From the IMG/VR virus record IMGVR_UViG_3300044618_002782, positions 1 to 64,000 of that record: 64,000 nucleotides of DNA; one strand, written 5' to 3'. Below are positions 17,260 through 64,000 of the stretch, in pieces (the stretch's first letter is position 1; each line of letters starts with the position of its first letter). The translations under genes and the position numbers were made by a program. This DNA is from a virus (lineage: Duplodnaviria > Heunggongvirae > Uroviricota > Caudoviricetes). Below the pieces are notes generated by a model. The model was not told where the DNA came from and did not search any database. It saw only the letters and a list, made by a program, of their open reading frames with translations.

Positions 17260-17286
17260 TTGTGTTAACTGTGTTAATATAAACAC

Positions 17287-28044: not shown

Positions 28045-28176
28045 TATACTTTCCTATTAAACATACTTGTCAACTATGAGTTTAATTATTTTATTGATTA
28101 AAACAATGGTATACTCAAAATTAGATCACTGTAACTCTGATAATCAAAAACTCTCTCTCTAAAACAATTATATTTT

Positions 28177-29295: not shown

Positions 29296-29296
29296 A

Positions 29297-30787: not shown

Positions 30788-30871
30788 TTGTATATAAACG
30801 GATCTCTTTTACGAAGTTCTTTTAGTTTTTTTCTGTAACGTATTTCTAATTTGATTTTATCGATCAGTCTT

Positions 30872-47052: not shown

Positions 47053-47658
47053 TTATGCTGTGCTCAGGTTAGTCAGAGTTTGAATTCGCACAGTATAATC
47101 GATTTGAATTTGTCTGTTAAGGCTTTTTTGCACTGGGTGAAAAATTACATGAGTGATCAACATGAGATCACTGCTGGATCCTTCCCATGACTTGAGGCCT
47201 AGTTCGTCAAATACGTATTCGCCGTTGAAATTGGTGCTGTTGTCAAACGCTTGTTGACCAACAGGTTCACCATAATCTAGCAAACACGTTACAAGAACAT
47301 CAGTGTAAAATTGCCCTGATGTATGCAATACAGTAAGATTATTACGTGTGGGATCGGTATTAGCAGGGCTGTTTCCGTCTACCACTTTAATAAAAGTCTG
47401 ATTGTAAAGATCTGCATTTTGTCCTGTGATGTTGGGCGGCAAATATGTAATAACACCAGTTGGATCTACACTGCTGCCGCCGTTGCCAAATGCCATGGCA
47501 TACACATATCCAAGATTTTTATTGGCCAAACTTTGTGCCAGTGCCATACTCATGTTTTCATAATGAATTGCATTGTGCTTGTCAACAAAGGTTTCCCCGT
47601 TGTTGGGATCATAAATTTTTAAAAAACCTTCTATTGTCACGGGACCTATGGACATCAT
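47053..47658 (-). CDS. hypothetical virion-associated protein (201 aa)
   Basis: Intact ORF between the giant ORF and the fibre genes. Confidence 0.4.
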   Translation of the reverse strand: MMSIGPVTIEGFLKIYDPNNGETFVDKHNAIHYENMSMALAQSLANKNLGYVYAMAFGNGGSSVDPTGVITYLPPNITGQNADLYNQTFIKVVDGNSPANTDPTRNNLTVLHTSGQFYTDVLVTCLLDYGEPVGQQAFDNSTNFNGEYVFDELGLKSWEGSSSDLMLITHVIFHPVQKSLNRQIQIDYTVRIQTLTNLSTA

Positions 47659-47818
47659 GCTCGTTTCTCCACCATCACTTCTTTGGTATTTGGATCAAAA
47701 ATCTTTACATACGCTTCGATATAAACAGATCCGGTTTCATTGGGTTTTGCCCCTTTCTTTACAGGATCAGCTTTTAATGGGGTATCTGACGTATTATTCA
47801 TAGTGTTATTTATACGCA

Positions 47819-50800
47819 TCACTCACCACGAATAAACCTTGCTGCCAGAGTTTGCTGTTCTTGCAGAGCAATACCGTCGCCCTGGGCAGCATATATGTCT
47901 GTTCCTCTGCGTACCAAAATAGTCACTTGATAATTGGCAGTAGGAGCTACAGTAAATTGTACGACAACTGGCTCAGCATCAACAATGGTGTATCCGCCGG
48001 TCTGTCGTAGGCCGCCTACATACACTTCAATTGCATCGTCAATTTCGGTAGAATCTACACCAATGACATTGATGTTTTCAGTAGCAAACACTGTTTGTGT
48101 ACCAGTGGCTAAGAAACTTTCTGCTGTTACATAATTTTGATATTCTGGTGGCAACAAGTTGCCACGGCCAATGTCATAAACTGGTGTGTTGACTGCATGG
48201 TTTGCAGCGCCAGTACCGGCTGTGCCTCTACGTAATCCGCTTATGGTATTGGTTACTACATCACGTGCCCGATAAGCAATACGCTCTCCGTTGATGGTGA
48301 TAAGTCCAAAAATACCCTGCGGCAAATTAGGCACTGATAAACTGCTGGCATCGTCGACATAGATTACAGTGTCATCTGCAGACAATGGCTGAACCAAGGT
48401 TGTGGTTGTATTTTCGGTTATTCTATACAACGATTGCAGCCCGCGCATGTCTTGAAAGATGCGGAATGCAATTGCGCCCGGAATAACACTTTCGGTTACA
48501 CTGGTAATGGCAACAACTTGTGCTGCGCTTATCGGAGCTCCCAATAGTTCTACAATCGATCCATCGACTGTGAATCCGGATCCTTCGAACAAGAACAATC
48601 CATTCAGTGTCACTTGTAATCTTGAAGGATTAGTTATTATTCGACCAGTATCAAACCTATTAGTCTGTATCTGCGACCCTGCACTGTAATCATATGATCC
48701 AGGTTCGTTGGTTACTAATCCAGAATCATACGGCGTATCATCGTAGGGCTGAGCAACTAAGACACCTTCGGTTGTGGGACCAACAAAAACTTGAGTTAAT
48801 AGATTCTGCTGGCTGGTATCATTCCAGCTGGTGATCGAAATAACATCTCCAATACTAGGCACCAAGGATCCAGTGCTATTCCATATCAGTGTATTGCTGG
48901 ATGAAATATAGTACTGTGCTTCTGTGCGCACAGATATTAAAATTCTAGATCCCAGAGGAGGTGCATCAGTAAGAATAACAGTTCTGCGGCTGCTTCCGTC
49001 CCAGGGTGACACAAAAAATTCTGTCCCCAGTACCAACGCTGTGTTATCAACATAAACAGTTACATCATTGTCAGAAATCAAGGCCTGGCTATATCCTCCG
49101 CGTGTTGGCAGATAATATTCGAGACTTGAGCCATCGTCAATGTATTCAACTCCTTCGCTAGGTCTTGCTCTTACACCATTCTTTTCAACTACAACGTTGG
49201 CAGGATTTGTACCGGTCAATGTCTGAGACAGCGGGAAGCTCAATGATCCAGTGTAGACAAAGTATTCTGTCTGTGGCGTACTCCAGCTCAGCACCGGTGT
49301 GGTATCAGTTGCACCCATTGCTGAAATAAAGACATAGTCTTCGGCAGTGTAGGCAGATGCAAACACAACTCTGGTAAATCCTGGGCTAGCATAACTGTAT
49401 GTGTAGTTGGTTATCACTGTTCCGTTTACAAATACCACTACCTGGTTGATGAGGTTAAACGGCACAGGTAAAATAATACCCGTATTAACATCAAGACCGT
49501 TGTAGGAGTTGCTGTACAACTGATTGCCGCCACCCAGTCCGTACACTGTCAGCACAATGACATCGGTTTCAGCAACACCCGAGATGATTTCAACTGTTTG
49601 ATTAACCCAGTCTACGACATAATTGACCAATGGTATTAACTGTGTGCCAATTGTCTGATTCCAGACACGCAATTGTACTGGGTCGTTCAGTAGATCTGCG
49701 AAACTGTATTCAGTAATATCAACATCGTAAAAGTACTTGGTTGTTTCCAACGGAAATCCGTGTCCATCACCAGCCCAGTCCGAACCCACTGTAGAGAATA
49801 CACGCATGTCTAGTGTGTCAAACACTGCGCCTGGTACAAGTTCTTCAGGAGCATGGCTTGAGTAAGTGTCTACAAATGCACCTCCTGCTACATTGATAGC
49901 AGTGGGCCCAATTCCCAAATAAGGATCAGTAAATTCGCTGGCGTAGATGGCATCTAAGATTGCCGGATCATAAGTTGGTGCTCCTTCGGGACCAAATGCC
50001 AAGTTGTCGTAGGGATTTATATCATAATTACCAACATCAAATCCGGTGTTTTGATTGAAGCCCGGTGCTTTGACTTGCACTCCTGGATAATCAACGCCTG
50101 ATATCAGCAATGCAAGATCCAGACCCGGTTCCGACGGAGTAGGAACATAATAGCCCATTGTACGATTAACACCACTTAGATCGCCAGCTGGTACTAGTGT
50201 CCATTGATCAGGATCAAAGGTACTGGTTTCCACAGCAGTGCTGTCGGCAGAATCTGCACTCCACACTCGATCGTCGTATCGCACCAAGGTTCCATTATCG
50301 TAACTAACTTCGGGCTGCCAGTCAACAATGGTGGTTTGATATTGATATCGATCGTACTTGATGGTTGTTGTGATACTTCTTGTCAGGCCATTGCCCATGA
50401 CTGCAACAGCACGAGCTCTGCGTCCAAGGTAAGTCAGCACGGCTGTGCCGCTGACAACTGGGTTAGTGGTACTGGTTGGGGGAACTGCTGTTAGTACTCC
50501 GCTGGTGACAACTCTGTATACCAAACCTGCCGGAGTTTGTATAACTGAGCCTGCCAGTGCAGGACGCAATGCCACCCAGGCCTGTGCTTCGGGCAAGCCG
50601 CCAATTAATTCAATAATAGCAGTGGTCAAATATCCCAAGCCTGGGTCAGTTACTTCAATACTAACTATTACACCTAGACTATTAATTTTGGCAATCATCT
50701 GTGCTTCACGAGTAGCTTGCCCGGTTACTACCACTTCTGGTGCTACCGTGTATCCTTCTCCGGCATCAACAATGGTTACAGATTCCAAGGTCAATAGATA

Positions 50801-53800
50801 ATTTTCATACCATTGATTGTAGGGGAATGTGGTCCATATCGGATCTGTGCTGGCAAAGCTGCTGGTAGTACTGACGTTGCTCGAGTCGTCCAGTATTGGA
50901 CTAATAAACAAGTCTTGGGCAGCATCCCAGAATGCCGGCAAGTCAAAATCGTTTATTGTGCCCAGATACTGGTCAAATCCTTTGTAGATCAAGTTAAATT
51001 CGCGGATCTGTACGTGGTAAGGTTTGACTTCTTTGATGTAGTCTAGCACAAAGTCTTGATTGTCTCTGCGATAGATCTGGAAAGGCACGAGATCACGAAT
51101 GGTATGATCAACATCGATCAAGCTGGTCTTGGTCAACCATAACGGAGCAATTTGTTCGCTGAGTACATAATTGAACATCAGTGTCAGCGAGCGATTTCTT
51201 TCAATCAGCAGGTCTTCAACAAACAACTCTTGATTGATTGCTTGAATAATCTTGCGAGTCTCAATAATTGGTTCTTGATCAAAAAACTGTGCATCAAATA
51301 CTTCAACATCAAATCCATAACGACCAGTATCTACTGTGTAATCCCATAGACGCTTCTGGAACTCAATTGTACCGTCTTCGAGGCCTACTCGAGTCCAAGT
51401 GTTGTTGTATTGATAAATTTCAAATTTACCTTGTGCATTGGCAGTGACTTTTACGCTGCTGCCTGCAGGAACTGTAATAGCATCCAGTGCCGAGACTGTA
51501 GGCACTTCAACTAAGATTCTAGTGGCGGGATTGTAGCCAGGTAAGTACCAATCAATATAATTCCAAAATTGTTTGGTGTCGTAATTTTGTACTCTAATCA
51601 AAGTCAAGGCCTTTGATCCAAACAACGGGCCAGGCACAACTTCGTATATGGCCCAGAGACCTCGATAATTACTGTCACTGGCCACAAGATATTTGTATCC
51701 AAGTGCCACTTCTGCTAGATTTTGATAGGTTAATTCTTCATAGTTGGCCAGTCTCAAGTTCCACTCACCGCTGAATACCGACGGTTCTGGTTCGGCACTG
51801 TTTAACAAGTTAAATCGACGTGTCTCTGATATAGGAAAATGCTTGAGAACTGTGTTGGCACGCACCAGGTAATTTTTAAGCGCCATCAGACGATTAACAA
51901 ACATGGACTGTCGTGGTCGAGCCTCTAAGCCGTACTGTTCGCTGGGACTTAGGAATGGATCCGGAACTGGGTTGCCGGCTGTGTCAACTCCACAAAAACT
52001 GTCTTGCAACTTCAAATACAAGCTGTCAGTTAAGAATCCATCAGCACGTCCTTCAGGAATCAATTGATATTCTACGTGTACTGCAGCATCGTTATATTGT
52101 TGATCATATTCGACATGCAAGATAGTATCTTGTGCAGAAATATACGGCAGTCCGTTGTATATCGCAATGGTGCTTGCATCAATTGGTGCAATATAGCTGA
52201 TTCCACTGCTGCGAGGACTAAAAATGTACTGAGAAATCGTTTCAATGCTCAAAGTTTTCTTGGCTGCACGATCAACAGTGCTAATTCCTGTTACCCAGAA
52301 ATAATATTGTGTTCCAAAAACTCCTTGCTCATTCAGCGAAGTAGATGTCACATAACTGGTGGTATTGAGAGGCAGGCCTGGGCCGGCATAGTCTGCAGGC
52401 GAGACACTGCTGGCAATCCATTGGTAGACTTGAATTATGCTGCCCGGGAACACTTGCCCCCATCTGCGGCTGGCATACACAATATCGTCTTGGTTGGTGT
52501 CGATAAATCTTACGTTGGAGGTATCCCACCAAATTTGTCCAACTCGTTCTTGTCTCCAACTGTTGCCATAATTGTTTACTTCGCCCACGTTGTAAGCAGC
52601 TGGATTGATTGCACCGATGTAATCGATGTTTTGAGCCACAGCTCCTAACAATCGACCTTGCAAGGGGTTAAAATAATCAAAGTATTGTTTTTGACTACCA
52701 CTGACACGATCATACATGAACACTGTGTTCAGCAAAGAAACATCTACCACTGGTTGTTGTGCTCGAATGACTTTCCATGCTGGTTGCTGTTCAGGATTTT
52801 TCAACAAAACAACCTGTCCGTAATTGGATTGACTGTCACCCAAGTCACTGCCAGGTGATCCAATCAGCAGTGTACCTGTGGTATAATCAATGGCTGTTCC
52901 AAATTGATCTACTGAAGTTATGCTTGTGTCAAAAATCTGTTGTCCAAAAACAAACTGCCCTGGATTGGTCACTGTTGGGCTGGCAGCAGGAAGGAAATCG
53001 TATGAATATACCACGCCACTTTGTATAACAGTATCACCAAACAGTGTGCTGAAAGAATCAAATGTGGTGGTACCGGCGTCAAACGTCACCTGCGTAATAG
53101 CTGATCCATTGGGTGCGCCGATCAGCAGCGCAGTTGTGTTGTCGCTAATGAATAATCCGCTGCCGAAATTAGCAAAGTTTTGCTGTATTGGTGCTGTAAT
53201 AACTTGCAAGTTAACGTAAATTGTCCAGCCCAGATTTGCAAACAATGTACCTGTTCCGGGTAACACTTGCAGTTTGTTCAATACTGCTGCAGACTGAAAA
53301 TTCTTAGCCGATAAGATCAATCTTCCACTTACAAGTACTATGCGGTCAGACACAAGTGGTGCCACACTAAATGTTATCTGCTGTGTGGTATTGTTGTAAG
53401 TGTAGTTGACTCCGTCAGTTTGAACTACATCGTTGATTAATACTCGACTTGTGTAAGATACAGCAGCAGACCAAATTGTGCCAACATCAAATACTCTAGT
53501 AGTTCCATCTCCTAGCAAGGTAACGTCAGCTGTAACAGATGCTTGTGCATTTGGCACGCCAGCAGCGTTGATGTCTGCTGCCAAATCAGCCACAGTGGTT
53601 CCTGTCAACTCAACAAAATAATTGTTGATTCTAATGGTATTGCCTGTGGTCAGGGTGGGGTTGGCTATGTTGCTGGTTATAATGCCGTAAACTCGTGCTT
53701 GGTTTTGATTGAATTCAACCTGTCCAGACTGCACATAGTCTGAGTCAGCAAATGGTGCAGAAACATACAAACTGCAATCATTGATACACTGATCCAACTT

Positions 53801-56800
53801 GTAGCCAAATTTGCTGGCCGAATCTGGTGCAACTGAGTAGATTGTTTGAATCAAACTAAACTGATTCGATTCAATAGTCAGCACATCACCTACTGCAATA
53901 TCAGTATCAACTGTGACTGTGTTGGCTGCAACAGAATATGTTCCGCCAATGTTGTTTTGTTGGTTTAGTAAGAACACACCATTTAATATAACTGATGTAG
54001 GTGTAACCAAATTTTGTACTGTGGTATAATCTACCGTTGTGCTGTCGGTGATCTGGAAATTCTGTATAGATCGGTCAAACACATAGGTTGCGCCGGCCTG
54101 TTGAACAACTTGACTGGTCACAGGATCTGTGTAAGAAATGTCTGGGCATCCTACTATAACCTGGCGGCCGTCGGTAGTGGTGCTGACACTGTGACCAAAT
54201 CTTTCTGTGCTTGATACTCCCGGCACAGTCAACGACGTAACAGGTGTAAAATAGGTTTGAGCTCTTACATTAATAGTCGTGCCGGCCGCAGGTGCTGTAA
54301 CAAATGTCAATGCTCGCAGGGCCGAGACAGTGTAATCTGTAACGGGTCTTTGTAGCACATCATCAATGTACACACTGGCGCTGTATGAATTAACAGCCGT
54401 ATAAATCGAACTCAGATCAAATACTGTAGTCGACGCATCGCCAGTGAACGATTGAGTTGCACGGCGAGTAATAGTGATAAGAGAATCTGCATCTGGTGGT
54501 ATTGAAAAAACCACGTTGCCGCCAGCAACTATATAATCTATTCCCAGGGTCAATATTGTGCTGCCATCGGACACTACCAATTGATCATCCAAGTCAATCA
54601 CAATGTGATTGCTGTAGTTGAAGAAATTTTGAGTCACAGTGACACGGTATACGACAAATTGATTTTGATAATCTACACGACCGTACACATAAACAATGTT
54701 GCCGCCTGGTGCACCAACATATACCCAGCGTTCGTCTTGACTTATAGTCACACTGTAACCAAACTCATCAGCAGCAGTTACAGCAGATCCGGGATCAATC
54801 GATAACAACTGCCATTGCTGAAACACTGCTGAACCTGGATCTCGATAAACAACAACTGCATATCCGCGATTGGTATTACTGGCACTGGCACCTACCACTG
54901 CCCATTGCTGGTCTCCCATGTCCATGGCATTGCCATATCCACTGGTGCCGGTTGTTCCCAATTCCAATACAGAATTTTGCGCATAAACATCTGCATCGGT
55001 TTTTACATAAGTGTAGACTGCTCCTGGAACAGTTGCTGCACTGGCAGGATTGTAGCCTGGAGCACCAACCAAGGCGCTGAGATTTCTAAATCCTTGTGCC
55101 AAGCTGGCACCATACAAGGAATTTTCTAACGGAATTGTAGGTGTAACAACAGACGGTTGAGTAAACGGATCTATTTTTTCTAACACAGTCCAATGATCAG
55201 CGCCATTGTTGTCAACCCAGACCTTGATGCCCGGAGTAAGTTGTCGAGCATAAGGCAGATCAGCAATATCAGCTGCTTGAGCAACACGAGCAGGTTGCAG
55301 AGTAAATCCAACACCTTCGCCGGTTATTGAACTTTGCAATCCGTCAAACACATAATCAATCAACAAGGTAGTGATGCCGGGTACTGCACGAACACGGTAA
55401 ATGCCGTTGATACTGTCATCGAAAAACTTGATTACCAAAATATCATTGATCGCAAGTCCGTGTGCTTTGTTGAACTGCACTAGACTTTGTCCTTCGAGAT
55501 TGTCGGACACACGAGTAATTGTGCCGGGCACAAGTTCTGCACGATAAACATGCCAGTCGTACTGATTGACGCTGGCCACCCAGATTGTGGTGCCTACTCC
55601 AATTTCATCTAGCGCACCGTCGAGTGCAACCACAGCATCTAAATCAAATGCAGTGAGATCCACATCATCTAAATTTGCATATCCAGCAGTAGGTAAACCA
55701 ATGTCAGTTGGATTGATAATCGTGGTAGGCAAAATGTTCGGCGATGTCAAGTTTGTGCTGGACTTCCATACATCTTGTAACAGTACTGTTTGATCGGCTT
55801 TGCTAGTTTCACCCGGCAGCACAACTTGAATTAAGCTGGGATCACTGGGCAATAAAGCCTGATTCAACAACAATTCAAAATAACTTCTATTTGCTGTGGC
55901 TCCGTATGTGCTGCGTAAGATTGCCCAGAATTCATAGATCTGATACTCGGCTGCTTCCTTTCCTAGATCTGCCAAATTAAATATTTCTGCACTGCGTAAT
56001 GTACCCTTGGTGTTTAGAAACTGTTGGTACAAGTTGACCTGGCTTACATCATCCAGATTAAGTGCTTGCATGTATTCTCTCGGACGGAATCCAATCAGTC
56101 CATAGCTGAACAAGTCTACTTCTTGTTCTAAGTTTGCATCGTATGTACTGTAAGCTGTTGACAATTGCAAAGACTGGTTGGATGCGTTGGGCAGCAGACC
56201 TTTTTGTATTTGATCGTAATCGCTCTTGATCCACAACGAATAGTTAAACTCTGTGCTGGGTTGAATGATGTTACTGGCACTCCAGTACTCATTTTTAAAC
56301 AGAACAATTTCGCCCTTGGCGTATTTGCGATTAGGTACCCATTCAACAATGTTGTCTTGGTTTAAAATAAATCCAGGAGCGTTTAGTTGGCCATTCCAGT
56401 TGCCACTGAGCCATCCTGAGATAAGAACTCGACTCTGTCGCACACCAGTGACCGGATTGTACAAGAGATCAGAAAAAATACTGCGATTGTCCAGCACCAA
56501 CAAATGCTCGTAGGCAGTAAACTTTAGCTGCAGATAATTGATGGTGTTGGATGTTAGAGTAGACACCTTGAACAAGTTATCTAATCGATCAATCACCAAC
56601 TCAGAAGTCGGCAACGGCTGACGATTTTGATTGAGAATTATGTTTTCAGGAGTATATGTATTGATGCTGTCAACAATTGCATTTGCACGCACAACAGATA
56701 TGCTGGTTGCAGCTGGGTTTAAGTTGATAATAGAACCGGTTGCCCACCCTTGCTGAGTCCAGTACAAGAATTCTTGTGCCATCTGAGTCCAGTTGAGTGT

Positions 56801-59800
56801 GTAGCCGTTTTCTCGGTTTTCAAATACCAATCCCTGATCTTCTAGCAATTTTCCGTAACTGAGTAGAAAATCGCACACACCAGATTCGTTGGTAAACACA
56901 AATCCGTAAGGTACTTGAGCTGTATTATTGGTATAATCCTGTGATACTTTTATCGAAGTATTGCCGGCTGCAATCGTGACAGTGTTGCTACTGGGTCTTG
57001 AAATCAATATTTCAAAATAAGGATCCTGGGAACTATATCCCAAAACTGCATAGCCGTCTGCGACACGCTGAACAATAACCGAGCTGTATATGATCTGTCC
57101 GAACGGCTGATTTTTATACAACATCAGTTGATAACTTTCGTCAGGCAGAATCAAACTAGTATTAAGGCTGTCGGGTGTGGATCTTTCTGTGTAGACCTTG
57201 AGATATTTTTTATCTGTGAATGCTGCTGTTCTCCAGCACAGACGCACGTCAATGTTGTTCAAGGACAAGGTCAGATTGTCTGTGCTGTTGATACCCAATT
57301 GACGGTTATAGTCAATTATCCAATTCAGGTAACTGGCCTTGCTGACACCATTGCCGTACAAGGGAGTAAGATCCTTGGCGTCCAGGCGATAACGCCCGTC
57401 CCAAAGATACTGATCCAGGTCTGCATCAAATACATAACGGTCTCTATCAGCAAACACACTGAAGAACTGTGCAGGTTTGGTCAATGCCAACAGTCGCATG
57501 GCAGAAAATGGCCACGAGCTTGAAGTACGCCAGGTGTTTTCAACTGGTCCGTTGTCGCCAAATTTCCAGCTGCGTCTAAAGCTGGTAGCATCAAAGTTAC
57601 CAACGGTACACTCTAAAGGATTTAATAATTCTCCTTCAGACCCGGCCGGTATCACACTCAGCAGTTCAGGTCGAATATACAAAGGATCAACGTAGGAACC
57701 ATTGGGATCGCGAATTAGACCGGCTGCCAAATCATCCCAAAGAACTGTGTTACCTGATGTGTAGGGTGCAGGACCGTACTGATTTTCCCACCAGTCAGGT
57801 TTTTTGCTAAGTCCTAGCATCTCCCAAGGAGTAGTATTGGGAGTATAGGTATCATAGAAATAGTTGTAAATTCCTCTCCAGGCCCCGACGGACGGCCGAT
57901 TGGTCAATACGTCTGCACTTTGACTGTAATTGTAAGTAAACTCGTCGGATGCTTGATATTCTTGTGTTGTATAATCCAGCTTGTTCCACCCTACCCAGCT
58001 GAGAAAATCCACACTCAGCATGTCGTTGATTTCAGTTTGAGTGTAGTCGGTGGTACGAAATTGTCCAGGCACAACATCTGCTGTACTCAACGGAATAGCA
58101 GTGCCAATTTTGAGGTTATCAAAAATTCTCTTTTCAAATTCCAATAACACCTGATCACGCACATCACGGAATGCCAAGGTGATTGATCCGTCGTGTCCGC
58201 GTATTACAACGCGAGCACTGGTATAACTGTTGTCGATGTATATCTCTGGTTTAAAGGCCGGATACAAACCCAACTTTGTGGGAGTGTTTGGTACAAAACT
58301 ACCGTAGGTAGTGGGATATTCACGAATCTTTATAACATCCCCGATTGTCAACGGTGCAGTAATAGTTACTGTGGGCGAGTCTGCAGAAACTGTGTAATCA
58401 TAACCGTTGATCAGCAATTCACCGTTGAGGAAGATCAATAACCCTTTGAAATTTGCAGAATCAAAATTGTAAGTTTGAAAAGTATCAAATGTGGGTGTGC
58501 TGATAAACGAGTATGTTTCCGATTTCTCTGTGTAAGTTTCACCTGCTGGTATCATGTCAGACCAGTAGAACGGAGAAATCTCACTCTTGCTCAGTGCAAT
58601 TTCCTGCAGTACAATATCTAAAATCTCACTGGCGGTCAAGTTTTCAAAATTGCCTTTAACAGCCAGATCCAACAACAACGCCTTAAATTTGATATATTCT
58701 CTGCTGTTGAATTCCAGTGCTGAGAACAATTCAAATTGTTCTCTTCGCAAAAACACACCAGTCAGTGCCAATGGTGAACTGTGTTGTACAATGATGTCGC
58801 CGTAACGCAAAATGTTACCTAGGTCTCGGCTGTTGTTGGCACCAATAATTGGGCCTTGAATGTTGCGTAAATTTTGACCAATGCTTTCGTAATGAGTACG
58901 TATGGTTCCCAAGGTAAACACATTGCTGTTTTCATTGAGAGGATTATTTTCTAAATTTAACGGAACTTGATAATATCCAACACTGCTGGCCACACTGCTT
59001 ATGGCCTGCACTTCAATTACAGTTCCTATAGGAAGTGGTTCCAATAGAGTTATAACAGTTGTGCTGTTGACAATTTCGTAAACGTAGGTGTCGGGCTCAA
59101 TGAATTTACCTTCGGCAAATATTTGCAATGGCGCAAAAATAGCATCAACATCGACAGGAATATCTAAAGTCAACGGTAATTCTGCATATTCAAATTTAAA
59201 TATTTGGCGACTGATATTTCTTGACTGACTGGATTGCCAACCTATTAGATCACTAAACAATACTCGATCAATATACTGACGTACAAATCCAGTGCTGACA
59301 TTTTGCTCGCGACTTACTCGATCTTCCACATAGATAAATTTTTCAGTGTACAGATAGTTTTCAAAAACAATATCGCCTACGTTGTTAATGTTGAGATATC
59401 TCAACGGAAATCCCAACACAATGTCTTGTATCTGCGTTGTTCCTTGTGCATAGCCAAACAGTTTGCTGCCAGCAAAAGTGCTGCTGGGATAAACTGCTTG
59501 ATTGCTAAAACTAAATCCGTTGCTGTCAATAACATCAAACAGTGGTGGCTGATTGATTCCGGTCTTTTCTTGTGCGGGTAACCAACTTACTCCGTCGAAC
59601 CAAAAACTTTTTCCTTGTTGTTGTATGCCGCTGAGACAGACCACTGTTTGATTGACCAGGGCTATGCCATTGAATGCTGGCACTAAATCAATAATCAAAT
59701 TACCCGAGTTATCAGGATCAATAAATCGCACTTCGTATATTTGGTTACGAACATTGGGATCAGCATCAGCAGCAAAAATAACTCGGCTACCGTTGATGAA

Positions 59801-61894
59801 TGTGTATCCGTCGGTGCTGTATCCTGCTGTTCCGTTTATATTGCTGAATGCATCAGTATTTTCTAGATCTACAATGTTAACTGGCGACTTGCCTTGTGTG
59901 CCAAAATTAAACAAGTTTATATTGGCACGGAATTCAATAACAGGACGTTTAGCACGCAGACTGTTGTTGACATTCAAAATTTGATTGTTGTATTCAGCAG
60001 TGGCAGCAAGGACATCAATGTGGAACCATCGGTTGCTGCGACTCCACGCATTACGGTCAGCACTGGCACGATTGATAGTGATGTAATCTGGGATTTGCGG
60101 TTCATTCAAATTAGAATCGTACGGAGATGAATCGTAACTGGTACTGTCATACGGAACTGATTCGCTGATGGTATATGTTTCAGGAGTTATAAAATCTGTA
60201 ACTGGTATCAATTTAATACCGTTACCGATCATGGCTCCAAACACGCCAGTGGTTGGTAGCGGAGCTCCGGCTGGGCCACCACTGCCAGTGGCCAGTACAC
60301 TTTCTTCAACAGTGTCGTAGATGTACTGTTGGAATTCGTCTTCCTTGTGAACTGGACCTGTCATCTTTCTAGATTGATAGATATGGAACGGACCAAAATA
60401 GGCCTCACCATCAATAAACCCTACCCTAGCATCAATTCCCGGACCGGTACCTACTCCTTCCACATAGTATTCTAAATTTTGAAATTGTGCTGGCTCAATC
60501 AGTCCGCGGAATTGTACTTTTAATCCGTTTGTAAACACCACTCCATTGGGACTGGTATAATTTTTTGCCCCAATAATTTCGTCGATATTGATGAATTGTT
60601 CTTGATCTAAATCGACCAATTTGATTCTGCCAAACAATTCGGGATTGACACTGTCCTGATACCACAAGGTGTCTAGCACTGCTGTCAGCAAAGGTATTTC
60701 TTCAAAGACGCCAGATGCATTTTTATACCATTGGGTACTGGCATATTCAGTGCCAAACAGTACAGCAAACTTGCTGAGGTTTGCCACAGGTAAAATACTG
60801 TTAAGACGAATAAATGGATTGCCGTCAATATCATCGATGTATTGAATTTGCCAAACACTATAACGTTCGCTCACAGGCAAATCTGTGGTTTGATCATAGG
60901 TTAATGTATCGTAGCTGCCGGGCAAGCCATTGTCGATGTCTGTGCGAGGTAACGGATCAAACTGTGTGGTTATTTGCCAACCACCAGATTCGGCGTTGGC
61001 CGTTGTGTTCAAAAATACCAAGGTACGACCGTCGAGATCGGTGATATCATCAATGCCATCGGGATATTGTGCTAAAAATTCACTGACATAAACATTGTTA
61101 ATTTGATTAAATTTCAGCGTGGTTACTAGATCAACATCTTCAATGCTGGGCAACGAATAATAAAAATCTTGTGCTGTTTTTAGTGGTACATTGAAACGAA
61201 CTGTGCCTTGTTGTGTTCCATTGTTGTCTACTCCCAATACGCCGCGGCTGCTGATGTTGGGCGCAAAAGGCATGGTTCCGCTGATACCTGGGGCAGCTTG
61301 AATCCAGAATCCAGCACCGGGCTGATTCACTGTAAACTCATAATTTCCGCCACGCACCAATGTGATGTCAGGGTTTTCGCCGTCGATGTCACTGAAAATA
61401 TAACCATTGGCTTCGCGTGTTATCTCCCAGACATCTGTCAATGCCACTGCTGTTCCAAAAATATCAACCGAGTCAGGTCCACCAGCCAACCAGTAGTATT
61501 GGCTGTAATTAGAAAACTTGTCTAGATCGCAAAAAGAATCCCACGCATAATACTGACTGTCAAAAAGTCGATCTGCTCGAGTGGTGTTGGCGCCTTGCAG
61601 GTCCAGTGCATCCAAGATTCCCGGATAGGTGATGGCATCAATGGGCTGACTGGTATCGGGCTTTAAAAACACAACCCCGGGTTCAAGTTGATAATCAGTT
61701 CTGACCGCTGATGGTTCTGTGACATAATTGTCAGCAGGATTGACACCGGGACCAACTCGACGACCCACATAACCCTGTGTTCGTTTGAGATTGGGTTCTT
61801 GTGTCAACTGATCTAATGTGGCATTTAGAAATTTGCGATTAGTGTCGGTACGAAAAATCTCGGGCAGCAGATCTACGGTACGTGGTATGGCCAT
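47819..61894 (-). CDS. giant structural protein (4691 aa; putative baseplate/fibre-associated protein with internal GDG..T.F.L repeat modules)
   Basis: Single uninterrupted 14,076-nt ORF. Beta-rich S/T/N/G/V composition. At least three copies of a tail-fibre-type repeat: SFTGDASTTVFDLSSIY...DYTVSA..LTFVTAPAAGTTINV, LLGDGTTRVFDVGTIW...NYTYNNTTQQITFSVAPLVSDRIV, LATGTQTVFATENINV...GYTIVDAEPVVVQFTVAPTANYQVTI. Internal opposite-strand ORFs are shadows. Confidence 0.75.
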   Translation of the reverse strand: MAIPRTVDLLPEIFRTDTNRKFLNATLDQLTQEPNLKRTQGYVGRRVGPGVNPADNYVTEPSAVRTDYQLEPGVVFLKPDTSQPIDAITYPGILDALDLQGANTTRADRLFDSQYYAWDSFCDLDKFSNYSQYYWLAGGPDSVDIFGTAVALTDVWEITREANGYIFSDIDGENPDITLVRGGNYEFTVNQPGAGFWIQAAPGISGTMPFAPNISSRGVLGVDNNGTQQGTVRFNVPLKTAQDFYYSLPSIEDVDLVTTLKFNQINNVYVSEFLAQYPDGIDDITDLDGRTLVFLNTTANAESGGWQITTQFDPLPRTDIDNGLPGSYDTLTYDQTTDLPVSERYSVWQIQYIDDIDGNPFIRLNSILPVANLSKFAVLFGTEYASTQWYKNASGVFEEIPLLTAVLDTLWYQDSVNPELFGRIKLVDLDQEQFINIDEIIGAKNYTSPNGVVFTNGLKVQFRGLIEPAQFQNLEYYVEGVGTGPGIDARVGFIDGEAYFGPFHIYQSRKMTGPVHKEDEFQQYIYDTVEESVLATGSGGPAGAPLPTTGVFGAMIGNGIKLIPVTDFITPETYTISESVPYDSTSYDSSPYDSNLNEPQIPDYITINRASADRNAWSRSNRWFHIDVLAATAEYNNQILNVNNSLRAKRPVIEFRANINLFNFGTQGKSPVNIVDLENTDAFSNINGTAGYSTDGYTFINGSRVIFAADADPNVRNQIYEVRFIDPDNSGNLIIDLVPAFNGIALVNQTVVCLSGIQQQGKSFWFDGVSWLPAQEKTGINQPPLFDVIDSNGFSFSNQAVYPSSTFAGSKLFGYAQGTTQIQDIVLGFPLRYLNINNVGDIVFENYLYTEKFIYVEDRVSREQNVSTGFVRQYIDRVLFSDLIGWQSSQSRNISRQIFKFEYAELPLTLDIPVDVDAIFAPLQIFAEGKFIEPDTYVYEIVNSTTVITLLEPLPIGTVIEVQAISSVASSVGYYQVPLNLENNPLNENSNVFTLGTIRTHYESIGQNLRNIQGPIIGANNSRDLGNILRYGDIIVQHSSPLALTGVFLRREQFELFSALEFNSREYIKFKALLLDLAVKGNFENLTASEILDIVLQEIALSKSEISPFYWSDMIPAGETYTEKSETYSFISTPTFDTFQTYNFDSANFKGLLIFLNGELLINGYDYTVSADSPTVTITAPLTIGDVIKIREYPTTYGSFVPNTPTKLGLYPAFKPEIYIDNSYTSARVVIRGHDGSITLAFRDVRDQVLLEFEKRIFDNLKIGTAIPLSTADVVPGQFRTTDYTQTEINDMLSVDFLSWVGWNKLDYTTQEYQASDEFTYNYSQSADVLTNRPSVGAWRGIYNYFYDTYTPNTTPWEMLGLSKKPDWWENQYGPAPYTSGNTVLWDDLAAGLIRDPNGSYVDPLYIRPELLSVIPAGSEGELLNPLECTVGNFDATSFRRSWKFGDNGPVENTWRTSSSWPFSAMRLLALTKPAQFFSVFADRDRYVFDADLDQYLWDGRYRLDAKDLTPLYGNGVSKASYLNWIIDYNRQLGINSTDNLTLSLNNIDVRLCWRTAAFTDKKYLKVYTERSTPDSLNTSLILPDESYQLMLYKNQPFGQIIYSSVIVQRVADGYAVLGYSSQDPYFEILISRPSSNTVTIAAGNTSIKVSQDYTNNTAQVPYGFVFTNESGVCDFLLSYGKLLEDQGLVFENRENGYTLNWTQMAQEFLYWTQQGWATGSIINLNPAATSISVVRANAIVDSINTYTPENIILNQNRQPLPTSELVIDRLDNLFKVSTLTSNTINYLQLKFTAYEHLLVLDNRSIFSDLLYNPVTGVRQSRVLISGWLSGNWNGQLNAPGFILNQDNIVEWVPNRKYAKGEIVLFKNEYWSASNIIQPSTEFNYSLWIKSDYDQIQKGLLPNASNQSLQLSTAYSTYDANLEQEVDLFSYGLIGFRPREYMQALNLDDVSQVNLYQQFLNTKGTLRSAEIFNLADLGKEAAEYQIYEFWAILRSTYGATANRSYFELLLNQALLPSDPSLIQVVLPGETSKADQTVLLQDVWKSSTNLTSPNILPTTIINPTDIGLPTAGYANLDDVDLTAFDLDAVVALDGALDEIGVGTTIWVASVNQYDWHVYRAELVPGTITRVSDNLEGQSLVQFNKAHGLAINDILVIKFFDDSINGIYRVRAVPGITTLLIDYVFDGLQSSITGEGVGFTLQPARVAQAADIADLPYARQLTPGIKVWVDNNGADHWTVLEKIDPFTQPSVVTPTIPLENSLYGASLAQGFRNLSALVGAPGYNPASAATVPGAVYTYVKTDADVYAQNSVLELGTTGTSGYGNAMDMGDQQWAVVGASASNTNRGYAVVVYRDPGSAVFQQWQLLSIDPGSAVTAADEFGYSVTISQDERWVYVGAPGGNIVYVYGRVDYQNQFVVYRVTVTQNFFNYSNHIVIDLDDQLVVSDGSTILTLGIDYIVAGGNVVFSIPPDADSLITITRRATQSFTGDASTTVFDLSSIYTAVNSYSASVYIDDVLQRPVTDYTVSALRALTFVTAPAAGTTINVRAQTYFTPVTSLTVPGVSSTERFGHSVSTTTDGRQVIVGCPDISYTDPVTSQVVQQAGATYVFDRSIQNFQITDSTTVDYTTVQNLVTPTSVILNGVFLLNQQNNIGGTYSVAANTVTVDTDIAVGDVLTIESNQFSLIQTIYSVAPDSASKFGYKLDQCINDCSLYVSAPFADSDYVQSGQVEFNQNQARVYGIITSNIANPTLTTGNTIRINNYFVELTGTTVADLAADINAAGVPNAQASVTADVTLLGDGTTRVFDVGTIWSAAVSYTSRVLINDVVQTDGVNYTYNNTTQQITFSVAPLVSDRIVLVSGRLILSAKNFQSAAVLNKLQVLPGTGTLFANLGWTIYVNLQVITAPIQQNFANFGSGLFISDNTTALLIGAPNGSAITQVTFDAGTTTFDSFSTLFGDTVIQSGVVYSYDFLPAASPTVTNPGQFVFGQQIFDTSITSVDQFGTAIDYTTGTLLIGSPGSDLGDSQSNYGQVVLLKNPEQQPAWKVIRAQQPVVDVSLLNTVFMYDRVSGSQKQYFDYFNPLQGRLLGAVAQNIDYIGAINPAAYNVGEVNNYGNSWRQERVGQIWWDTSNVRFIDTNQDDIVYASRRWGQVFPGSIIQVYQWIASSVSPADYAGPGLPLNTTSYVTSTSLNEQGVFGTQYYFWVTGISTVDRAAKKTLSIETISQYIFSPRSSGISYIAPIDASTIAIYNGLPYISAQDTILHVEYDQQYNDAAVHVEYQLIPEGRADGFLTDSLYLKLQDSFCGVDTAGNPVPDPFLSPSEQYGLEARPRQSMFVNRLMALKNYLVRANTVLKHFPISETRRFNLLNSAEPEPSVFSGEWNLRLANYEELTYQNLAEVALGYKYLVASDSNYRGLWAIYEVVPGPLFGSKALTLIRVQNYDTKQFWNYIDWYLPGYNPATRILVEVPTVSALDAITVPAGSSVKVTANAQGKFEIYQYNNTWTRVGLEDGTIEFQKRLWDYTVDTGRYGFDVEVFDAQFFDQEPIIETRKIIQAINQELFVEDLLIERNRSLTLMFNYVLSEQIAPLWLTKTSLIDVDHTIRDLVPFQIYRRDNQDFVLDYIKEVKPYHVQIREFNLIYKGFDQYLGTINDFDLPAFWDAAQDLFISPILDDSSNVSTTSSFASTDPIWTTFPYNQWYENYLLTLESVTIVDAGEGYTVAPEVVVTGQATREAQMIAKINSLGVIVSIEVTDPGLGYLTTAIIELIGGLPEAQAWVALRPALAGSVIQTPAGLVYRVVTSGVLTAVPPTSTTNPVVSGTAVLTYLGRRARAVAVMGNGLTRSITTTIKYDRYQYQTTIVDWQPEVSYDNGTLVRYDDRVWSADSADSTAVETSTFDPDQWTLVPAGDLSGVNRTMGYYVPTPSEPGLDLALLISGVDYPGVQVKAPGFNQNTGFDVGNYDINPYDNLAFGPEGAPTYDPAILDAIYASEFTDPYLGIGPTAINVAGGAFVDTYSSHAPEELVPGAVFDTLDMRVFSTVGSDWAGDGHGFPLETTKYFYDVDITEYSFADLLNDPVQLRVWNQTIGTQLIPLVNYVVDWVNQTVEIISGVAETDVIVLTVYGLGGGNQLYSNSYNGLDVNTGIILPVPFNLINQVVVFVNGTVITNYTYSYASPGFTRVVFASAYTAEDYVFISAMGATDTTPVLSWSTPQTEYFVYTGSLSFPLSQTLTGTNPANVVVEKNGVRARPSEGVEYIDDGSSLEYYLPTRGGYSQALISDNDVTVYVDNTALVLGTEFFVSPWDGSSRRTVILTDAPPLGSRILISVRTEAQYYISSSNTLIWNSTGSLVPSIGDVISITSWNDTSQQNLLTQVFVGPTTEGVLVAQPYDDTPYDSGLVTNEPGSYDYSAGSQIQTNRFDTGRIITNPSRLQVTLNGLFLFEGSGFTVDGSIVELLGAPISAAQVVAITSVTESVIPGAIAFRIFQDMRGLQSLYRITENTTTTLVQPLSADDTVIYVDDASSLSVPNLPQGIFGLITINGERIAYRARDVVTNTISGLRRGTAGTGAANHAVNTPVYDIGRGNLLPPEYQNYVTAESFLATGTQTVFATENINVIGVDSTEIDDAIEVYVGGLRQTGGYTIVDAEPVVVQFTVAPTANYQVTILVRRGTDIYAAQGDGIALQEQQTLAARFIRGE

Positions 61895-64000
61895 TAATAT
61901 TCACCTGTTTGACTTAAACTACTGCCGGGTCCAGACACTGGATAAAGTCCCGACACAGGAGTTTGACTTCGTATATTACTTTGTGTTAGTGCCTCAATGA
62001 CTTCAATGTCATTTACTGTTGCGGCACTGACAAAAATTTCATTGGGTGCCGATCTAATTTCATAAAGATCACCAAAGGATTTGAGCGGATTCAACGGAAC
62101 CAACACCACCGAACTGATAATAGAACCCAACTGTTCGTGCAGGTATGCAGCAAGTTCACTGAAAAAGAAACTGTCGCCAAAGTCCCATTTGTCAATTGTA
62201 AAATAATTGTTGATGGAGCTGATCACTTGACTTTTGATTTCGCTCAAGCTGGCAGTGGTTTTAGGAGCCCGCACCACTTTGATAGTGGCACGTAGTTCCG
62301 GAGCAGCTTTGATTCCAAACAGGGGCTTGAATATCACACTGTTGAGAACAATGTTGTCAGATATCATTTTGTAATCATTCAGTTGCGAATAGGCCACGGT
62401 CAACTGATCAATAGTGGGCGGCTGTGGTTGAGGTACAGAACCTGTTGTATCTTTGATATAGTTCTGATAAGCAGTGTAATACTCCTGATTCACTATGTAC
62501 AAATCAATAATGTTGGTTGAGCCAGGATCTATCACATTGGTCAATGGACTGTTGTGTCGATACTGAAAATACAAACTTTGGCGACCAACACGACTGATAA
62601 AATCCAGGCGTGGTATCAAGTTACGCTGTACTAGACCATTGATCAATTCCACTCTCAGTTCGTAAAAGTCTTGTTCTTGTGTGGCATAAAACAGTTGGCC
62701 GTTAATAAATTCAGTTTTGACTAGTTCAATAGCATCCTTAGTGGTGTAAGAAGTGTTGATTACTCCGGCAGCCACCGGCAAGTAAGTTTCGGTATCGTCA
62801 AAATCAGTGGTCAATTGCAAGAACACCAATTTGCTGGTTGGATTCACTGTAGGGGCAACAATTTCATTAAAGAAGTCGGGATTATCTGCTACTCCATCGC
62901 CGTTGCTGTCTCGATAGCTGACAACAACTTGATAATCGTCAACGTATCCGTCGCTTTCGACTGGTTGTGCAATAATTTCCATTGTGATGTCACCTGACAG
63001 GGGCAAGTTGCTGTCAGGTCGACTATTGGATTTCAGCACTCGTACAAAATCTTTGATAATTTGTCCTGTACGACTGTCGTAGACTTTTTCACTGCCGTCA
63101 AAGAAAAATCTAGTTTCAATGACACTGGCAAAAACATAATCCAACCCACGCGATATCACAGTGTAACTTTCACCGTTGGTTACAAATTCTATTAACCAGG
63201 AAGCATCAAGATTAACACCTTGAGTATTTTGTGCGTTGGCAAGACTGAATGCAGTATCCACAGCAAGATTGGTGCTGGTAATTAGATACCACGTGCTGTT
63301 CAAGTTATCGTACCCGATACCAAAATTTCTAAACAGCTCAATTTGTTGTAGCATGGACTGCTCTAAAGCACCAGGTAGGTCGTCGATGAATTTAGGAATA
63401 ACTTCGGCCGCTAATGCACCATCTGGTACAAATGTATTCAGAGCTACTGGCCCGTTTCCATCTGGCAAGTTGCCTAGACCATTGTTGATACCATCCAGTA
63501 TCACTGCTGACACTGTGGCCCAAATTTCAAGTTTTTCATCAGCTCTGACAGGTGTGCCGGCTACTAACTTGTTGTTGGCGTCAAAGAAAAACCCAACAGG
63601 CGGAATAAATTTAACCAGGCTGCCCTGTGTCACATAGCGTGCATTGTTGCTGGCATATAATCCAATGGCTTGAGGATTTGAGTTGAACGTGTTATAAAAA
63701 TAACCAGTGGTCTCGTTGACCAATGTGGTGCTTTGATTCCAGGCCAAATTTAAGATTGCCAGATTTGGACGTTCAAAGTTGGCATAGTAAAACTGCAGCA
63801 TACTGCGTGAACTCAGCAAGGGCTCAATGTTGTTGGTGATGATATCCACAATGTCGTTGCGATTGACCCAGTCAAACTCAAAGCTGGGCAGTAGATTTTC
63901 TCGATAAAGAACGCCGTCGCTGGAAAAGATGTTGGTAGAACTGTACTTGCCAGTTACATCAGTCAAGTCAATGTATCGACTGGTACCAGTGGCACTGCGT
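61894..64000 (-). CDS. baseplate/fibre-like structural protein, 5' partial (frame open beyond window end)
   Basis: The first track codon is TTG. 11 further upstream codons to position 64000 contain no stop, so the gene continues outside the window. Its stop overlaps the giant ORF start. Confidence 0.5.
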   Translation of the reverse strand, partial: RSATGTSRYIDLTDVTGKYSSTNIFSSDGVLYRENLLPSFEFDWVNRNDIVDIITNNIEPLLSSRSMLQFYYANFERPNLAILNLAWNQSTTLVNETTGYFYNTFNSNPQAIGLYASNNARYVTQGSLVKFIPPVGFFFDANNKLVAGTPVRADEKLEIWATVSAVILDGINNGLGNLPDGNGPVALNTFVPDGALAAEVIPKFIDDLPGALEQSMLQQIELFRNFGIGYDNLNSTWYLITSTNLAVDTAFSLANAQNTQGVNLDASWLIEFVTNGESYTVISRGLDYVFASVIETRFFFDGSEKVYDSRTGQIIKDFVRVLKSNSRPDSNLPLSGDITMEIIAQPVESDGYVDDYQVVVSYRDSNGDGVADNPDFFNEIVAPTVNPTSKLVFLQLTTDFDDTETYLPVAAGVINTSYTTKDAIELVKTEFINGQLFYATQEQDFYELRVELINGLVQRNLIPRLDFISRVGRQSLYFQYRHNSPLTNVIDPGSTNIIDLYIVNQEYYTAYQNYIKDTTGSVPQPQPPTIDQLTVAYSQLNDYKMISDNIVLNSVIFKPLFGIKAAPELRATIKVVRAPKTTASLSEIKSQVISSINNYFTIDKWDFGDSFFFSELAAYLHEQLGSIISSVVLVPLNPLKSFGDLYEIRSAPNEIFVSAATVNDIEVIEALTQSNIRSQTPVSGLYPVSGPGSSLSQTGEY

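What the first reader, a model, noticed from the sequence alone, without database searches (positions are those of the whole stretch)
47819..61894. Giant 4691-aa structural ORF with internal fibre-type repeat modules
This is a single 14-kb ORF, about 22% of the window, located between a baseplate/fibre-like gene and smaller fibre genes. It contains at least three diverged copies of a ~70-aa module (GDG.T..F.L....A...Y...V.I.......G..YT....T..ITF..AP..G..I) common in phage tail fibre or adhesin proteins. It also has a short SYDSSPYDS motif, and its N-terminal 150 aa have a distinct composition. A protein this large could form an extended fibre, a whisker, or an ejected needle/tape-measure-like structure. 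It may also be the target of the adjacent glycan-modification island.
Basis: seen in the sequence. Interest (0 to 1): 0.6.

Follow-up and report, generated by a model that had tools for sequence, protein, structure and literature searches.

The report
Giant baseplate protein of jumbo phage
The 14-kb gene is real and encodes a 517-kDa virion protein of a family that is the largest gene in many jumbo phages; it most likely builds the outer part of the tail baseplate rather than a fibre, whisker or tape measure, so it is a large but fairly ordinary member of a known, poorly studied family.

Summary
The ORF at 47819-61894 (minus strand) is real: 4691 aa, no stops, 517 kDa, pI 4.3. It is not an assembly artefact. 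Nine independent metagenomic contigs carry uninterrupted orthologues of 4650-4873 aa, and about 55 further loci stay open to the end of the fetched DNA.

It belongs to PHROG 10938, the giant "virion structural protein" of RaK2-like jumbo phages. Cultured members are PA5oct (3857 aa), Atu_ph07 (4449 aa), 121Q (3323 aa) and CBB. PA5oct and CBB have mass-spectrometry evidence for the virion.

The gene always follows the gp5-gp25-gp6 baseplate genes. Its start overlaps the gp6-like stop by one base.

About ten copies exist, and they have the fold of the T7 tail-fibre N-terminal domain. Four sit inside a seven-repeat integrin-like FG-GAP propeller.

The best reading is a giant baseplate-wedge and periphery scaffold in the gp7 position. 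No homology to T4 gp7 was detectable, so this rests on gene order. The fibre, whisker and tape-measure readings are disfavoured. The glycan-target idea is untested.

Verdict: a new member of a known, uncharacterised family.

The parts
47819..61894 (-). Giant ORF: 4691 aa, 517 kDa, pI 4.3. Member of PHROG 10938, the giant virion structural protein of RaK2-like jumbo phages.
61894..64000 (-). gp6-like baseplate wedge gene, cut by the window end. Its TAA stop overlaps the giant's ATG by 1 nt.
61679..61894 (-). aa 1-72: a highly conserved N-terminal segment with short helices and low AF2 confidence. Inferred to be the segment that binds the gp6-like pair; this was not shown.
60455..61678 (-). aa 73-480: confidently modelled beta-sandwich domains. 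Cupredoxin-like and gp10-like (CBA120 TSP4 N-terminus) folds were found in the aa 1-1200 model.
60095..60454 (-). aa 481-600: linker, largely lineage-specific and mostly low-confidence. Occupancy is about 0.2 for aa 481-560. It contains SYDSSPYDS at aa 586-594 (nt 60113-60139).
58970..59170 (-). aa 909-975: fibre-N-terminal-type module, copy 1.
58592..58960 (-). aa 979-1101: helical domain, the only sizeable helical part of the modelled regions.
58292..58486 (-). aa 1137-1201: module copy 2.
55205..58291 (-). aa 1202-2230: conserved core 1, of which about aa 602-1965 is shared with all cultured relatives. It includes a CBM5/12-like motif at aa 1846-1915. The fold was not modelled.
52853..55114 (-). 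aa 2261-3014: seven FG-GAP repeats forming an integrin-alpha-like beta-propeller. Repeats start at aa 2261, 2320, 2378, 2566, 2696, 2910 and 2998, with other domains inserted between them.
54233..54640 (-). aa 2419-2554: two tandem modules inserted between FG-GAP repeats 3 and 4.
53834..54055 (-). aa 2614-2687: module inserted between FG-GAP repeats 4 and 5.
53285..53512 (-). aa 2795-2870: module inserted between FG-GAP repeats 5 and 6. It is the second clear copy and is present in only about one third of relatives.
50915..52777 (-). aa 3040-3660: conserved core 2, shared with PA5oct, Atu_ph07, SCTP-2 and the RaK2/121Q group. The fold was not modelled.
50597..50791 (-). aa 3702-3766: a pair of small GxGY beta domains, with a weak PHROG 460 match.
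50150..50338 (-). aa 3853-3915: second CBM5/12-like motif, paralogous to aa 1846-1915.
49826..50137 (-). aa 3920-4023: a segment (DYPGVQV ... APEELVPG) that is nearly invariant in the family but has AF2 pLDDT below 50. Probably a partner-binding stretch.
47879..49747 (-). [not shown]
47655..47801 (-). 48-aa ORF between the giant gene and the 201-aa gene. Tiny ORFs are annotated at the same place in PA5oct and Atu_ph07.
47053..47658 (-). 201-aa conserved partner gene (PHROG 11259), 40% identical to PA5oct gp357, whose record carries an ESI-MS/MS note.
45643..47001 (-). 452-aa fibre-like gene. Its N-terminal 80 aa are shared with PA5oct gp358 (annotated gp10-like) and gp359.

Best explanation
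The ORF encodes a giant structural protein of the tail baseplate of an uncultured RaK2/PA5oct-type jumbo myovirus.

Proposed mechanism:
- It is made together with the gp6-like wedge protein; the stop and start codons overlap.
- It occupies the place that gp7 (P2 gpI, TssG) has in all contractile-tail gene clusters.
- I infer that its very conserved N-terminal ~70 residues join two copies of the gp6-like protein to form each of the six wedges.
- The remaining ~4600 residues would then form the enlarged outer baseplate. They comprise a string of beta-sandwich domains, about ten copies of a T7-fibre-N-terminal-type module, an integrin-like FG-GAP propeller with modules inserted between its repeats, two CBM5/12-like knobs and two conserved cores of unknown fold.
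- This outer baseplate would serve as the platform to which the downstream fibre proteins attach, and possibly as a direct contact with the cell surface.

Shown: family membership, gene order, intact conserved ORF, domain content, and virion presence of homologues.

Inferred: the wedge (gp7-like) role, six copies per virion, and fibre docking.
For: Family membership:
- PHROG 10938 matches with E=0.
- There is 26-29% identity over two long blocks to the giant proteins of PA5oct, Atu_ph07, SCTP-2, 121Q, RaK2 and CBB.

Virion presence of homologues:
- PA5oct gp355 carries an ESI-MS/MS note in its record.
- CBB_236 gave 21 peptides and lies next to CBB_237 (gp6) in the proteome table (PMC5259590).

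Gene order:
- The order gp5-like, gp25-like, gp6-like, giant holds in PA5oct and 121Q; in Atu_ph07 the giant directly follows the gp6-like gene.
- A gp6-like gene lies upstream of the giant in 79 of 80 metagenomic loci, ending just before its start in the 12 loci inspected.
- The window shows a 1-nt stop/start overlap with the gp6-like gene.
- The order W(gp25)-J(gp6)-I(gp7) is the conserved order in P2, Mu, pyocins and T6SS (established knowledge).
- No gp7 homologue appears in the CBB T4-core table rows retrieved, which list gp6, gp25 and gp53 (PMC5259590).

N-terminus:
- It is among the most conserved parts of the protein yet folds with low confidence on its own, as expected of a segment that folds against partners.

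Fold matches:
- The modelled parts are globular beta domains.

Conservation:
- The whole architecture is collinear in 57 relatives.
Against: - Profile comparison with T4 gp5, 6, 8, 9, 10, 11, 12, 53 and wac was also negative.
- Only 2231 of 4691 residues were modelled. The two cores shared by all relatives (aa ~1200-2230 and 3040-3660) have no known fold.
- Location in the baseplate has not been shown for any member of the family. The phiKp24 paper did not resolve the baseplate.
- Adhesion-type domains (FG-GAP, CBM5/12) would also fit a receptor-binding protein.
Confidence: 0.6

Rival explanations
1. It is a baseplate-attached accessory or decoration protein rather than the gp7 equivalent. On this reading the true wedge-completing protein is another gene that is unrecognisable by sequence. 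The giant is bolted onto the finished baseplate as an outer ring or platform, like the separate outer-periphery proteins of phiKZ.
For: - No gp7 homology was found at sequence, profile or fold level in the parts tested.
- The C-terminal model resembles phiKZ gp27, an outer-periphery scaffold that is not a wedge protein (PMC13250141).
Against: - The gene is in the gp7 slot with a stop/start overlap onto gp6 in the window, and directly follows the gp6-like gene in the loci inspected.
- No other conserved candidate lies between the gp25/gp6 genes and the fibre genes, except the 201-aa protein, which shows no family match.
Confidence: 0.2
2. It is itself a host-recognition protein, meaning a very large adhesin or tail fibre. 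It would reach the cell surface and bind polysaccharide through its propeller, CBM-like knobs and repeated modules.
For: - The modules have the fold of podovirus fibre N-termini.
- FG-GAP_2 matches 9 of 10 family members and CBM_5_12 matches 3 of 10.
- There is an integrin alpha-4 match with E 1.5e-4.
- The module and propeller regions are the most variable parts of the protein.
Against: - There is no shaft, coiled coil, beta-helix or C-terminal chaperone domain in the modelled 2231 residues.
- The C-terminal 1031 aa are conserved at 38-67% identity in more than 240 metagenomic proteins, unlike receptor-binding tips.
- Separate fibre genes follow downstream.
- In T7 the matching domain is the part that attaches the fibre to the tail, not the part that binds the host (established knowledge).
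Confidence: 0.15
3. It forms whiskers or hairs along the tail, or it is a tape-measure or ejected needle protein.
For: - Some relatives (CBB, Atu_ph07) have hairy tails (PMC5259590; PMC13282480).
- The protein is very long.
Against: - Among RaK2-like phages, whiskers are reported only for CBB, yet RaK2, K64-1, 121Q, PBECO4 and GAP32 all carry the giant gene.
- The modelled parts are beta-rich globular domains, whereas tape measures are helical.
- Atu_ph07 has a separately annotated tape measure, gp701 (PMC6102473).
- The gene is in the wedge block, not between the tube/chaperone genes and the hub.
Confidence: 0.04

Closest known systems
Giant virion structural protein of RaK2-like, PA5oct-like and Atu_ph07-like jumbo phages (PHROG 10938). 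Members: PA5oct gp355/YP_010678859 (3857 aa), which by its position next to the baseplate genes is probably the 'gp128' named among the largest proteins in PMC7318152; Atu_ph07 gp180 (4449 aa); 121Q gp582 (3323 aa); CBB_236.
   Same: - Homologous over two long blocks, aa ~1-1965 and ~3003-3660.
- Same position right after the gp6-like gene.
- It is the largest gene of these genomes and is used as the anchor for genome comparison of RaK2-like phages (PMC5259590).
- In PA5oct it is followed by the same 201-aa and fibre-like genes.
   Different: - Only 26-29% identical.
- At 4691 aa it is longer than the three cultured members whose lengths I checked.
- The FG-GAP propeller with nested modules (aa ~1966-3000) and the C-terminal 1000 aa have no tblastn match in cultured phages. 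They are conserved only in the uncultured clade.
T4 gp7 baseplate wedge protein (P2 gpI, Mu gp48 and TssG are the minimal versions).
   Same: - The gene follows gp6 directly.
- It is the largest wedge-block protein.
- It is multi-domain. T4 gp7 also carries a propeller-like region with an Asp-box motif (my reading of the T4 sequence, not tested).
   Different: - No detectable sequence, profile or fold similarity in the parts tested.
- 4.5 times longer.
phiKZ outer baseplate periphery (gp27 scaffold with gp26, gp127, gp130, gp139 and gp157).
   Same: - Both give an enlarged jumbo-phage baseplate platform for fibre attachment.
   Different: - phiKZ builds the platform from many separate proteins, whereas here a single chain could supply it.
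- There is no sequence relationship.
- The alignment rmsd is high (10.6 A).
N-terminal tail-attachment domain of T7 fibre gp17 and related podovirus fibres and tailspikes (Pfam PF03906).
   Same: - PF03906 matches 2 of 10 family members at best E 0.001, and the window protein at 0.055.
   Different: - Here it occurs about ten times within one chain, in tandem and nested inside a propeller, instead of once at the N-terminus of a trimeric fibre.
- The Pfam score is below the curated cut-off.
Integrin alpha-subunit FG-GAP beta-propeller with inserted I domain.
   Same: - Seven FG-GAP repeats.
- Profile match to integrin alpha-4 with E 1.5e-4.
- FG-GAP_2 matches 9 of 10 relatives.
- Extra domains are inserted between repeats, as the I domain is in integrins (established knowledge).
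   Different: - The inserted domains are phage fibre-type beta sandwiches, not von Willebrand A domains.
- The propeller fold was not modelled here.

Membership tests
PHROG 10938 / giant virion protein of RaK2-like jumbo phages | Significant sequence similarity over most of the family profile | tested here: met
   - hmmscan gave E=0 and 1027 bits in 4 stretches.
- tblastn to 88-89 phage records gave E down to 1e-97.
PHROG 10938 / giant virion protein of RaK2-like jumbo phages | Gene lies immediately downstream of the gp6-like baseplate wedge gene, in a gp5-gp25-gp6 block | tested here: met
   - In the window the gp6-like ORF ends at the giant's start, with TAATG at the junction.
- The same position after the gp6-like gene holds in PA5oct, Atu_ph07 and 121Q.
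- A gp6-like gene lies upstream in 79 of 80 IMG/VR loci.
PHROG 10938 / giant virion protein of RaK2-like jumbo phages | Protein is incorporated in the virion | not testable with these tools
   Only homologues have data: the PA5oct record carries an ESI-MS/MS note, and CBB_236 gave 21 peptides (PMC5259590).
T4 gp7 baseplate wedge protein | Similarity to the gp7 domains (Pfam PF21428, PF21456, PF21427) or to a gp7 family profile | tested here: not met
   - No Pfam hit in the giant or in 9 relatives.
- hhalign of the 58-sequence giant alignment against the 41-sequence gp7 alignment gave probability 0.1%.
- The N-terminal 130 aa alone gave 0.08%.
- BLASTP gave nothing.
T4 gp7 baseplate wedge protein | Fold similarity to gp7 in solved baseplates | tested here: inconclusive
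T4 gp7 baseplate wedge protein | Gene directly follows gp6; product forms a heterotrimer with two gp6 chains | tested here: inconclusive
   - The position criterion is met.
- The interaction is not testable here, since no multimer prediction is available.
Tail fibre / tailspike (T7 gp17 type) | N-terminal attachment domain followed by a trimeric shaft and a C-terminal receptor-binding domain | tested here: not met
   - The attachment-domain fold is present, but as about ten internal repeats.
- No shaft, coiled coil or tip domain appears in the modelled 2231 residues.
- The C-terminus is conserved in the clade.
Tape measure protein | Predominantly alpha-helical; gene lies between the tail chaperones and the hub | tested here: not met
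   - The modelled parts are beta-rich, with helices only at aa 979-1101.
- The gene follows gp6.
FG-GAP (integrin alpha-like) beta-propeller domain | Seven FG-GAP repeats recognised by the Pfam or PDB profile | tested here: met
   - Seven repeats are seen in the sequence.
- FG-GAP_2 matches 9 of 10 family members, best E 4.8e-22.
- There is an integrin alpha-4 match with E 1.5e-4.
- In the window protein alone the Pfam score is below the cut-off (E 0.019).

The most novel reading that the evidence does not exclude
One 517-kDa chain per wedge supplies the entire outer baseplate of these jumbo phages. On this reading it replaces the multi-protein periphery of T4 (gp7, 8, 9, 10, 11) or phiKZ (gp26, 27, 127, 130, 139, 157). 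Its integrin-like propeller, with fibre-attachment modules inserted between the blades, would be both the docking site for fibres and a direct sensor of the cell surface that triggers contraction.
Probability: 0.3. Interest if true: 0.55.

Novelty: new member of a known kind. Interest (0 to 1): 0.3.

Why it matters
This family is the largest gene of a widespread group of jumbo phages. The group includes the cultured phages PA5oct, RaK2, 121Q and Atu_ph07. No member has an assigned function or a solved structure: profiles covering the whole length hit nothing in the PDB except an integrin propeller.

If the protein is the wedge and periphery scaffold, it would show how a baseplate can be enlarged by growing one polypeptide rather than by adding genes. 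It would also give a domain map for cryo-EM model building in these phages.

For this window the practical value is annotation. The ORF is a real single gene, a baseplate structural protein, and is neither a fibre nor an artefact.

Tried and rejected
1. The search for homologous proteins with the full 4691 aa timed out. I replaced it with searches of aa 1-1200 and aa 3661-4691.
2. Self-BLAST of the whole protein returned only the identity hit. I replaced it with chunked BLAST.
3. Megablast against the phage collection gave no match. Only protein-level similarity exists.
5. I noticed by eye an 'LLP...N..F..A...L' resemblance between the giant's N-terminus and T4 gp7 residues ~650-675 and the P2 gpI N-terminus. 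hhalign did not support it, so I dropped it as evidence.
6. hhalign against single T4 baseplate and fibre proteins gave probability at or below 1.3% for all.
7. I considered the 201-aa downstream protein as an alternative minimal gp7/gpI. It has no Pfam hit and only an unknown-function PHROG, so nothing supports or excludes it.
9. Literature searches found no paper that assigns a function or location to this protein.
Full report
**Observation**

The minus strand carries one ORF from 61894 to 47819, 4691 codons with no stop. The product is 517 kDa with pI 4.3.

The ORF upstream of it (61894 to the window end) has no stop in 702 codons, so the window cuts it. It matches the baseplate wedge PHROGs 10646 and 219 (gp6 type). 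The junction reads TAATG, so the giant's ATG overlaps the gp6-like stop by one base.

Downstream lie a 48-aa ORF, a 201-aa gene (PHROG 11259) and a 452-aa fibre-like gene.

**Is the ORF real?**

The N-terminal 1200 aa and the C-terminal 1031 aa each find more than 100 metagenomic proteins at 31-70% identity. Most of these are probably fragments cut by short contigs.

In about 55 of 67 loci the frame stays open for 4400-4700 codons to the end of the fetched DNA.

For nine contigs I joined the N-terminal and C-terminal loci. Each gave an uninterrupted ORF of 4650-4873 aa. BLASTP coverage is collinear over the whole length in 57 relatives.

At 4691 aa the protein has the normal size for its clade. 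A 662-aa fragment 100% identical to the C-terminus is on a 25.8-kb JGI contig from sample 3300035682.

**Family**

PHROG 10938 ('virion structural protein') matches with E=0. tblastn finds 26-29% identity to the giant proteins of PA5oct, Atu_ph07, Phosso, SCTP-2, a Vibrio phage and the RaK2/121Q/CBB group. The similarity falls in two blocks, aa ~1-1965 and ~3003-3660.

Cultured members and their context:
- PA5oct gp355 is 3857 aa. It follows gp25-like and gp6-like genes, precedes a 201-aa gene and a gp10-like gene, and carries an ESI-MS/MS note.
- Atu_ph07 gp180 is 4449 aa.
- 121Q gp582 is 3323 aa.
- In the CBB paper the largest ORF is used to anchor genome comparisons of RaK2-like phages. CBB_236, listed next to CBB_237 (gp6), gave 21 peptides at 7.7% coverage (PMC5259590).

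The window's 201-aa and 452-aa proteins match PA5oct gp357 and gp359 (and the gp358 N-terminus). A gp6-like gene lies upstream of the giant in 79 of 80 loci, and gp5-like and gp25-like genes lie further upstream.

No paper I could find assigns the protein a function or a place in the virion.

**Anatomy: the module**

The copies at aa 2485-2554 and 2795-2870 match each other with E 1e-7 to 1e-8. An iterative HMM finds 13 candidate copies, against 2-5 in eight shuffled controls that kept the two seed copies. About ten copies are therefore genuine. They sit at aa 909, 1137, 2419, 2485, 2614, 2795, 4050, 4139, 4267, 4407 and 4606.

**Anatomy: the two structure models**

AlphaFold2 with family alignments gave usable models of aa 1-1200 (pLDDT 79.6) and aa 3661-4691 (pLDDT 77.7). 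Both are strings of beta domains. The only sizeable helical part is aa 979-1101.

- fibre N-termini of GP4, P-SCSP1u, LME-1, Carin-1 and Kp7

**Anatomy: Pfam and PDB profile matches**

Pfam on ten full-length family members gives FG-GAP_2 in nine (best E 4.8e-22), CBM_5_12 in three and Phage_T7_tail in two.

Seven FG-GAP repeats lie at aa 2261-3014, and four modules are inserted between them.

Family profiles covering the whole length hit nothing significant in the PDB by sequence except the integrin alpha-4 propeller, E 1.5e-4.

**Anatomy: conservation along the chain**

Conservation is highest at aa 1-80, 1921-1960, 3121-3160 and 3521-3640. It is lowest in the propeller/module region and in the C-terminal module array.

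Three stretches are present in only a minority of relatives: aa 481-560, about 2800-2840 (part of the second clear module copy) and 3761-3840.

A stretch at aa 3920-4023 is nearly invariant but modelled with pLDDT below 50.

SYDSSPYDS (aa 586-594) lies in a low-confidence linker. The N-terminal 150 aa are not compositionally unusual.

**What it most likely is**

Position is the main argument. In P2, Mu, R-pyocins, T6SS and T4, the gene after the gp6/J/TssF gene encodes the third chain of the wedge heterotrimer, gp7/I/TssG (established knowledge).

In the phages inspected here that slot is filled by the giant. The rows retrieved from the CBB T4-core table list gp6, gp25 and gp53 but no gp7 (PMC5259590).

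The giant's N-terminus is very conserved but does not fold confidently alone. [quoted passage not shown]

I therefore read the protein as the wedge-completing chain. Its huge remainder would form the outer baseplate and carry fibre-attachment-type domains.

I do not file the protein as a gp7 family member. I say that it sits where gp7 sits and probably works like it.

**Rivals**

- *Accessory outer-baseplate protein that is not the wedge chain.* This remains quite possible (0.2).
- *Giant adhesin or fibre (0.15).* The FG-GAP and CBM-like domains and the variable module regions favour it. Against it are the absence of any shaft or tip, a conserved C-terminus and the separate fibre genes downstream.
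- *Whisker, tape measure or needle (0.04).* These are unlikely. Among RaK2-like phages, whiskers are reported only for CBB, but the gene is in all of them. The modelled parts are beta-rich. Atu_ph07 has its own annotated tape measure.

The idea that the protein is the target of the neighbouring island is untested. That island is mainly radical-SAM paralogues, and I found no glycosyltransferase among the ORFs scanned.

**Verdict**

This is a real, intact and typical member of a known but uncharacterised family of giant jumbo-phage virion proteins. It is almost certainly a baseplate component and probably the gp7-position wedge and periphery scaffold.

It is a new member of a known kind, with modest interest. 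Its main value is correct annotation and a domain map. The integrin-like propeller with nested fibre-type modules is the most unusual detail.

Noticed in passing
window 26626-40003 (-): There are at least six radical-SAM paralogues in a row (26626-28044, 31959-33260, 33238-34455, 34452-36158, 36155-37483, 38603-40003). Two of them have the SPASM iron-sulfur domain placed N-terminal of the radical-SAM core, which is the reverse of the usual order. Several ORFs with no family hit are interspersed. Its substrate is unknown.
   Followed up: partly
window 29297-30787 (-), 40004-40810 (-), 16573-19660 (+): Around the radical-SAM cluster lie a NodU/CmcH-type carbamoyltransferase, a kinase-like protein, a thymidylate synthase, a nucleotide-sugar epimerase and an aminotransferase. 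No glycosyltransferase turned up in my scans.
   Followed up: no
window 47655-47801 (-): A 48-aa ORF lies between the giant gene and the 201-aa gene, and its stop overlaps the next start (ATGA). By eye, its C-terminal half (SVYIEAYVKIFDPNTKEVMVEKRA) resembles the N-terminus of the 201-aa protein (PVTIEGFLKIYDPNNGETFVDKHNA). Tiny ORFs are annotated at the same position in PA5oct (gp356, 41 aa) and Atu_ph07 (gp179, 42 aa).
   Followed up: partly
window 49826-50137 (-), giant aa 3920-4023: This stretch (DYPGVQV ... APEELVPG) is nearly invariant across the family but is predicted with pLDDT below 50. That pattern suggests it folds only against a partner protein.
   Followed up: no
giant aa ~191, ~499-556, ~695-735; loci: Relatives differ by whole-domain insertions at fixed hot-spots. 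For example, a ~110-aa insertion after aa 191 appears to duplicate the following domain, and 70-160-aa insertions occur near aa 700. The family therefore grows by domain duplication in place.
   Followed up: partly
L020 and L034 (IMG/VR relatives): Two of 67 related loci have an early in-frame stop, after 1489 and 1166 codons, while all the others stay open. These could be assembly errors, frameshifts or genuinely split genes. I did not examine them.
   Followed up: no
L085 (Escherichia phage 121Q) 2249-3013: In 121Q an HNH endonuclease annotated as 'associated with group I intron' sits between the gp25-like and gp6-like genes of the same baseplate block.
   Followed up: no
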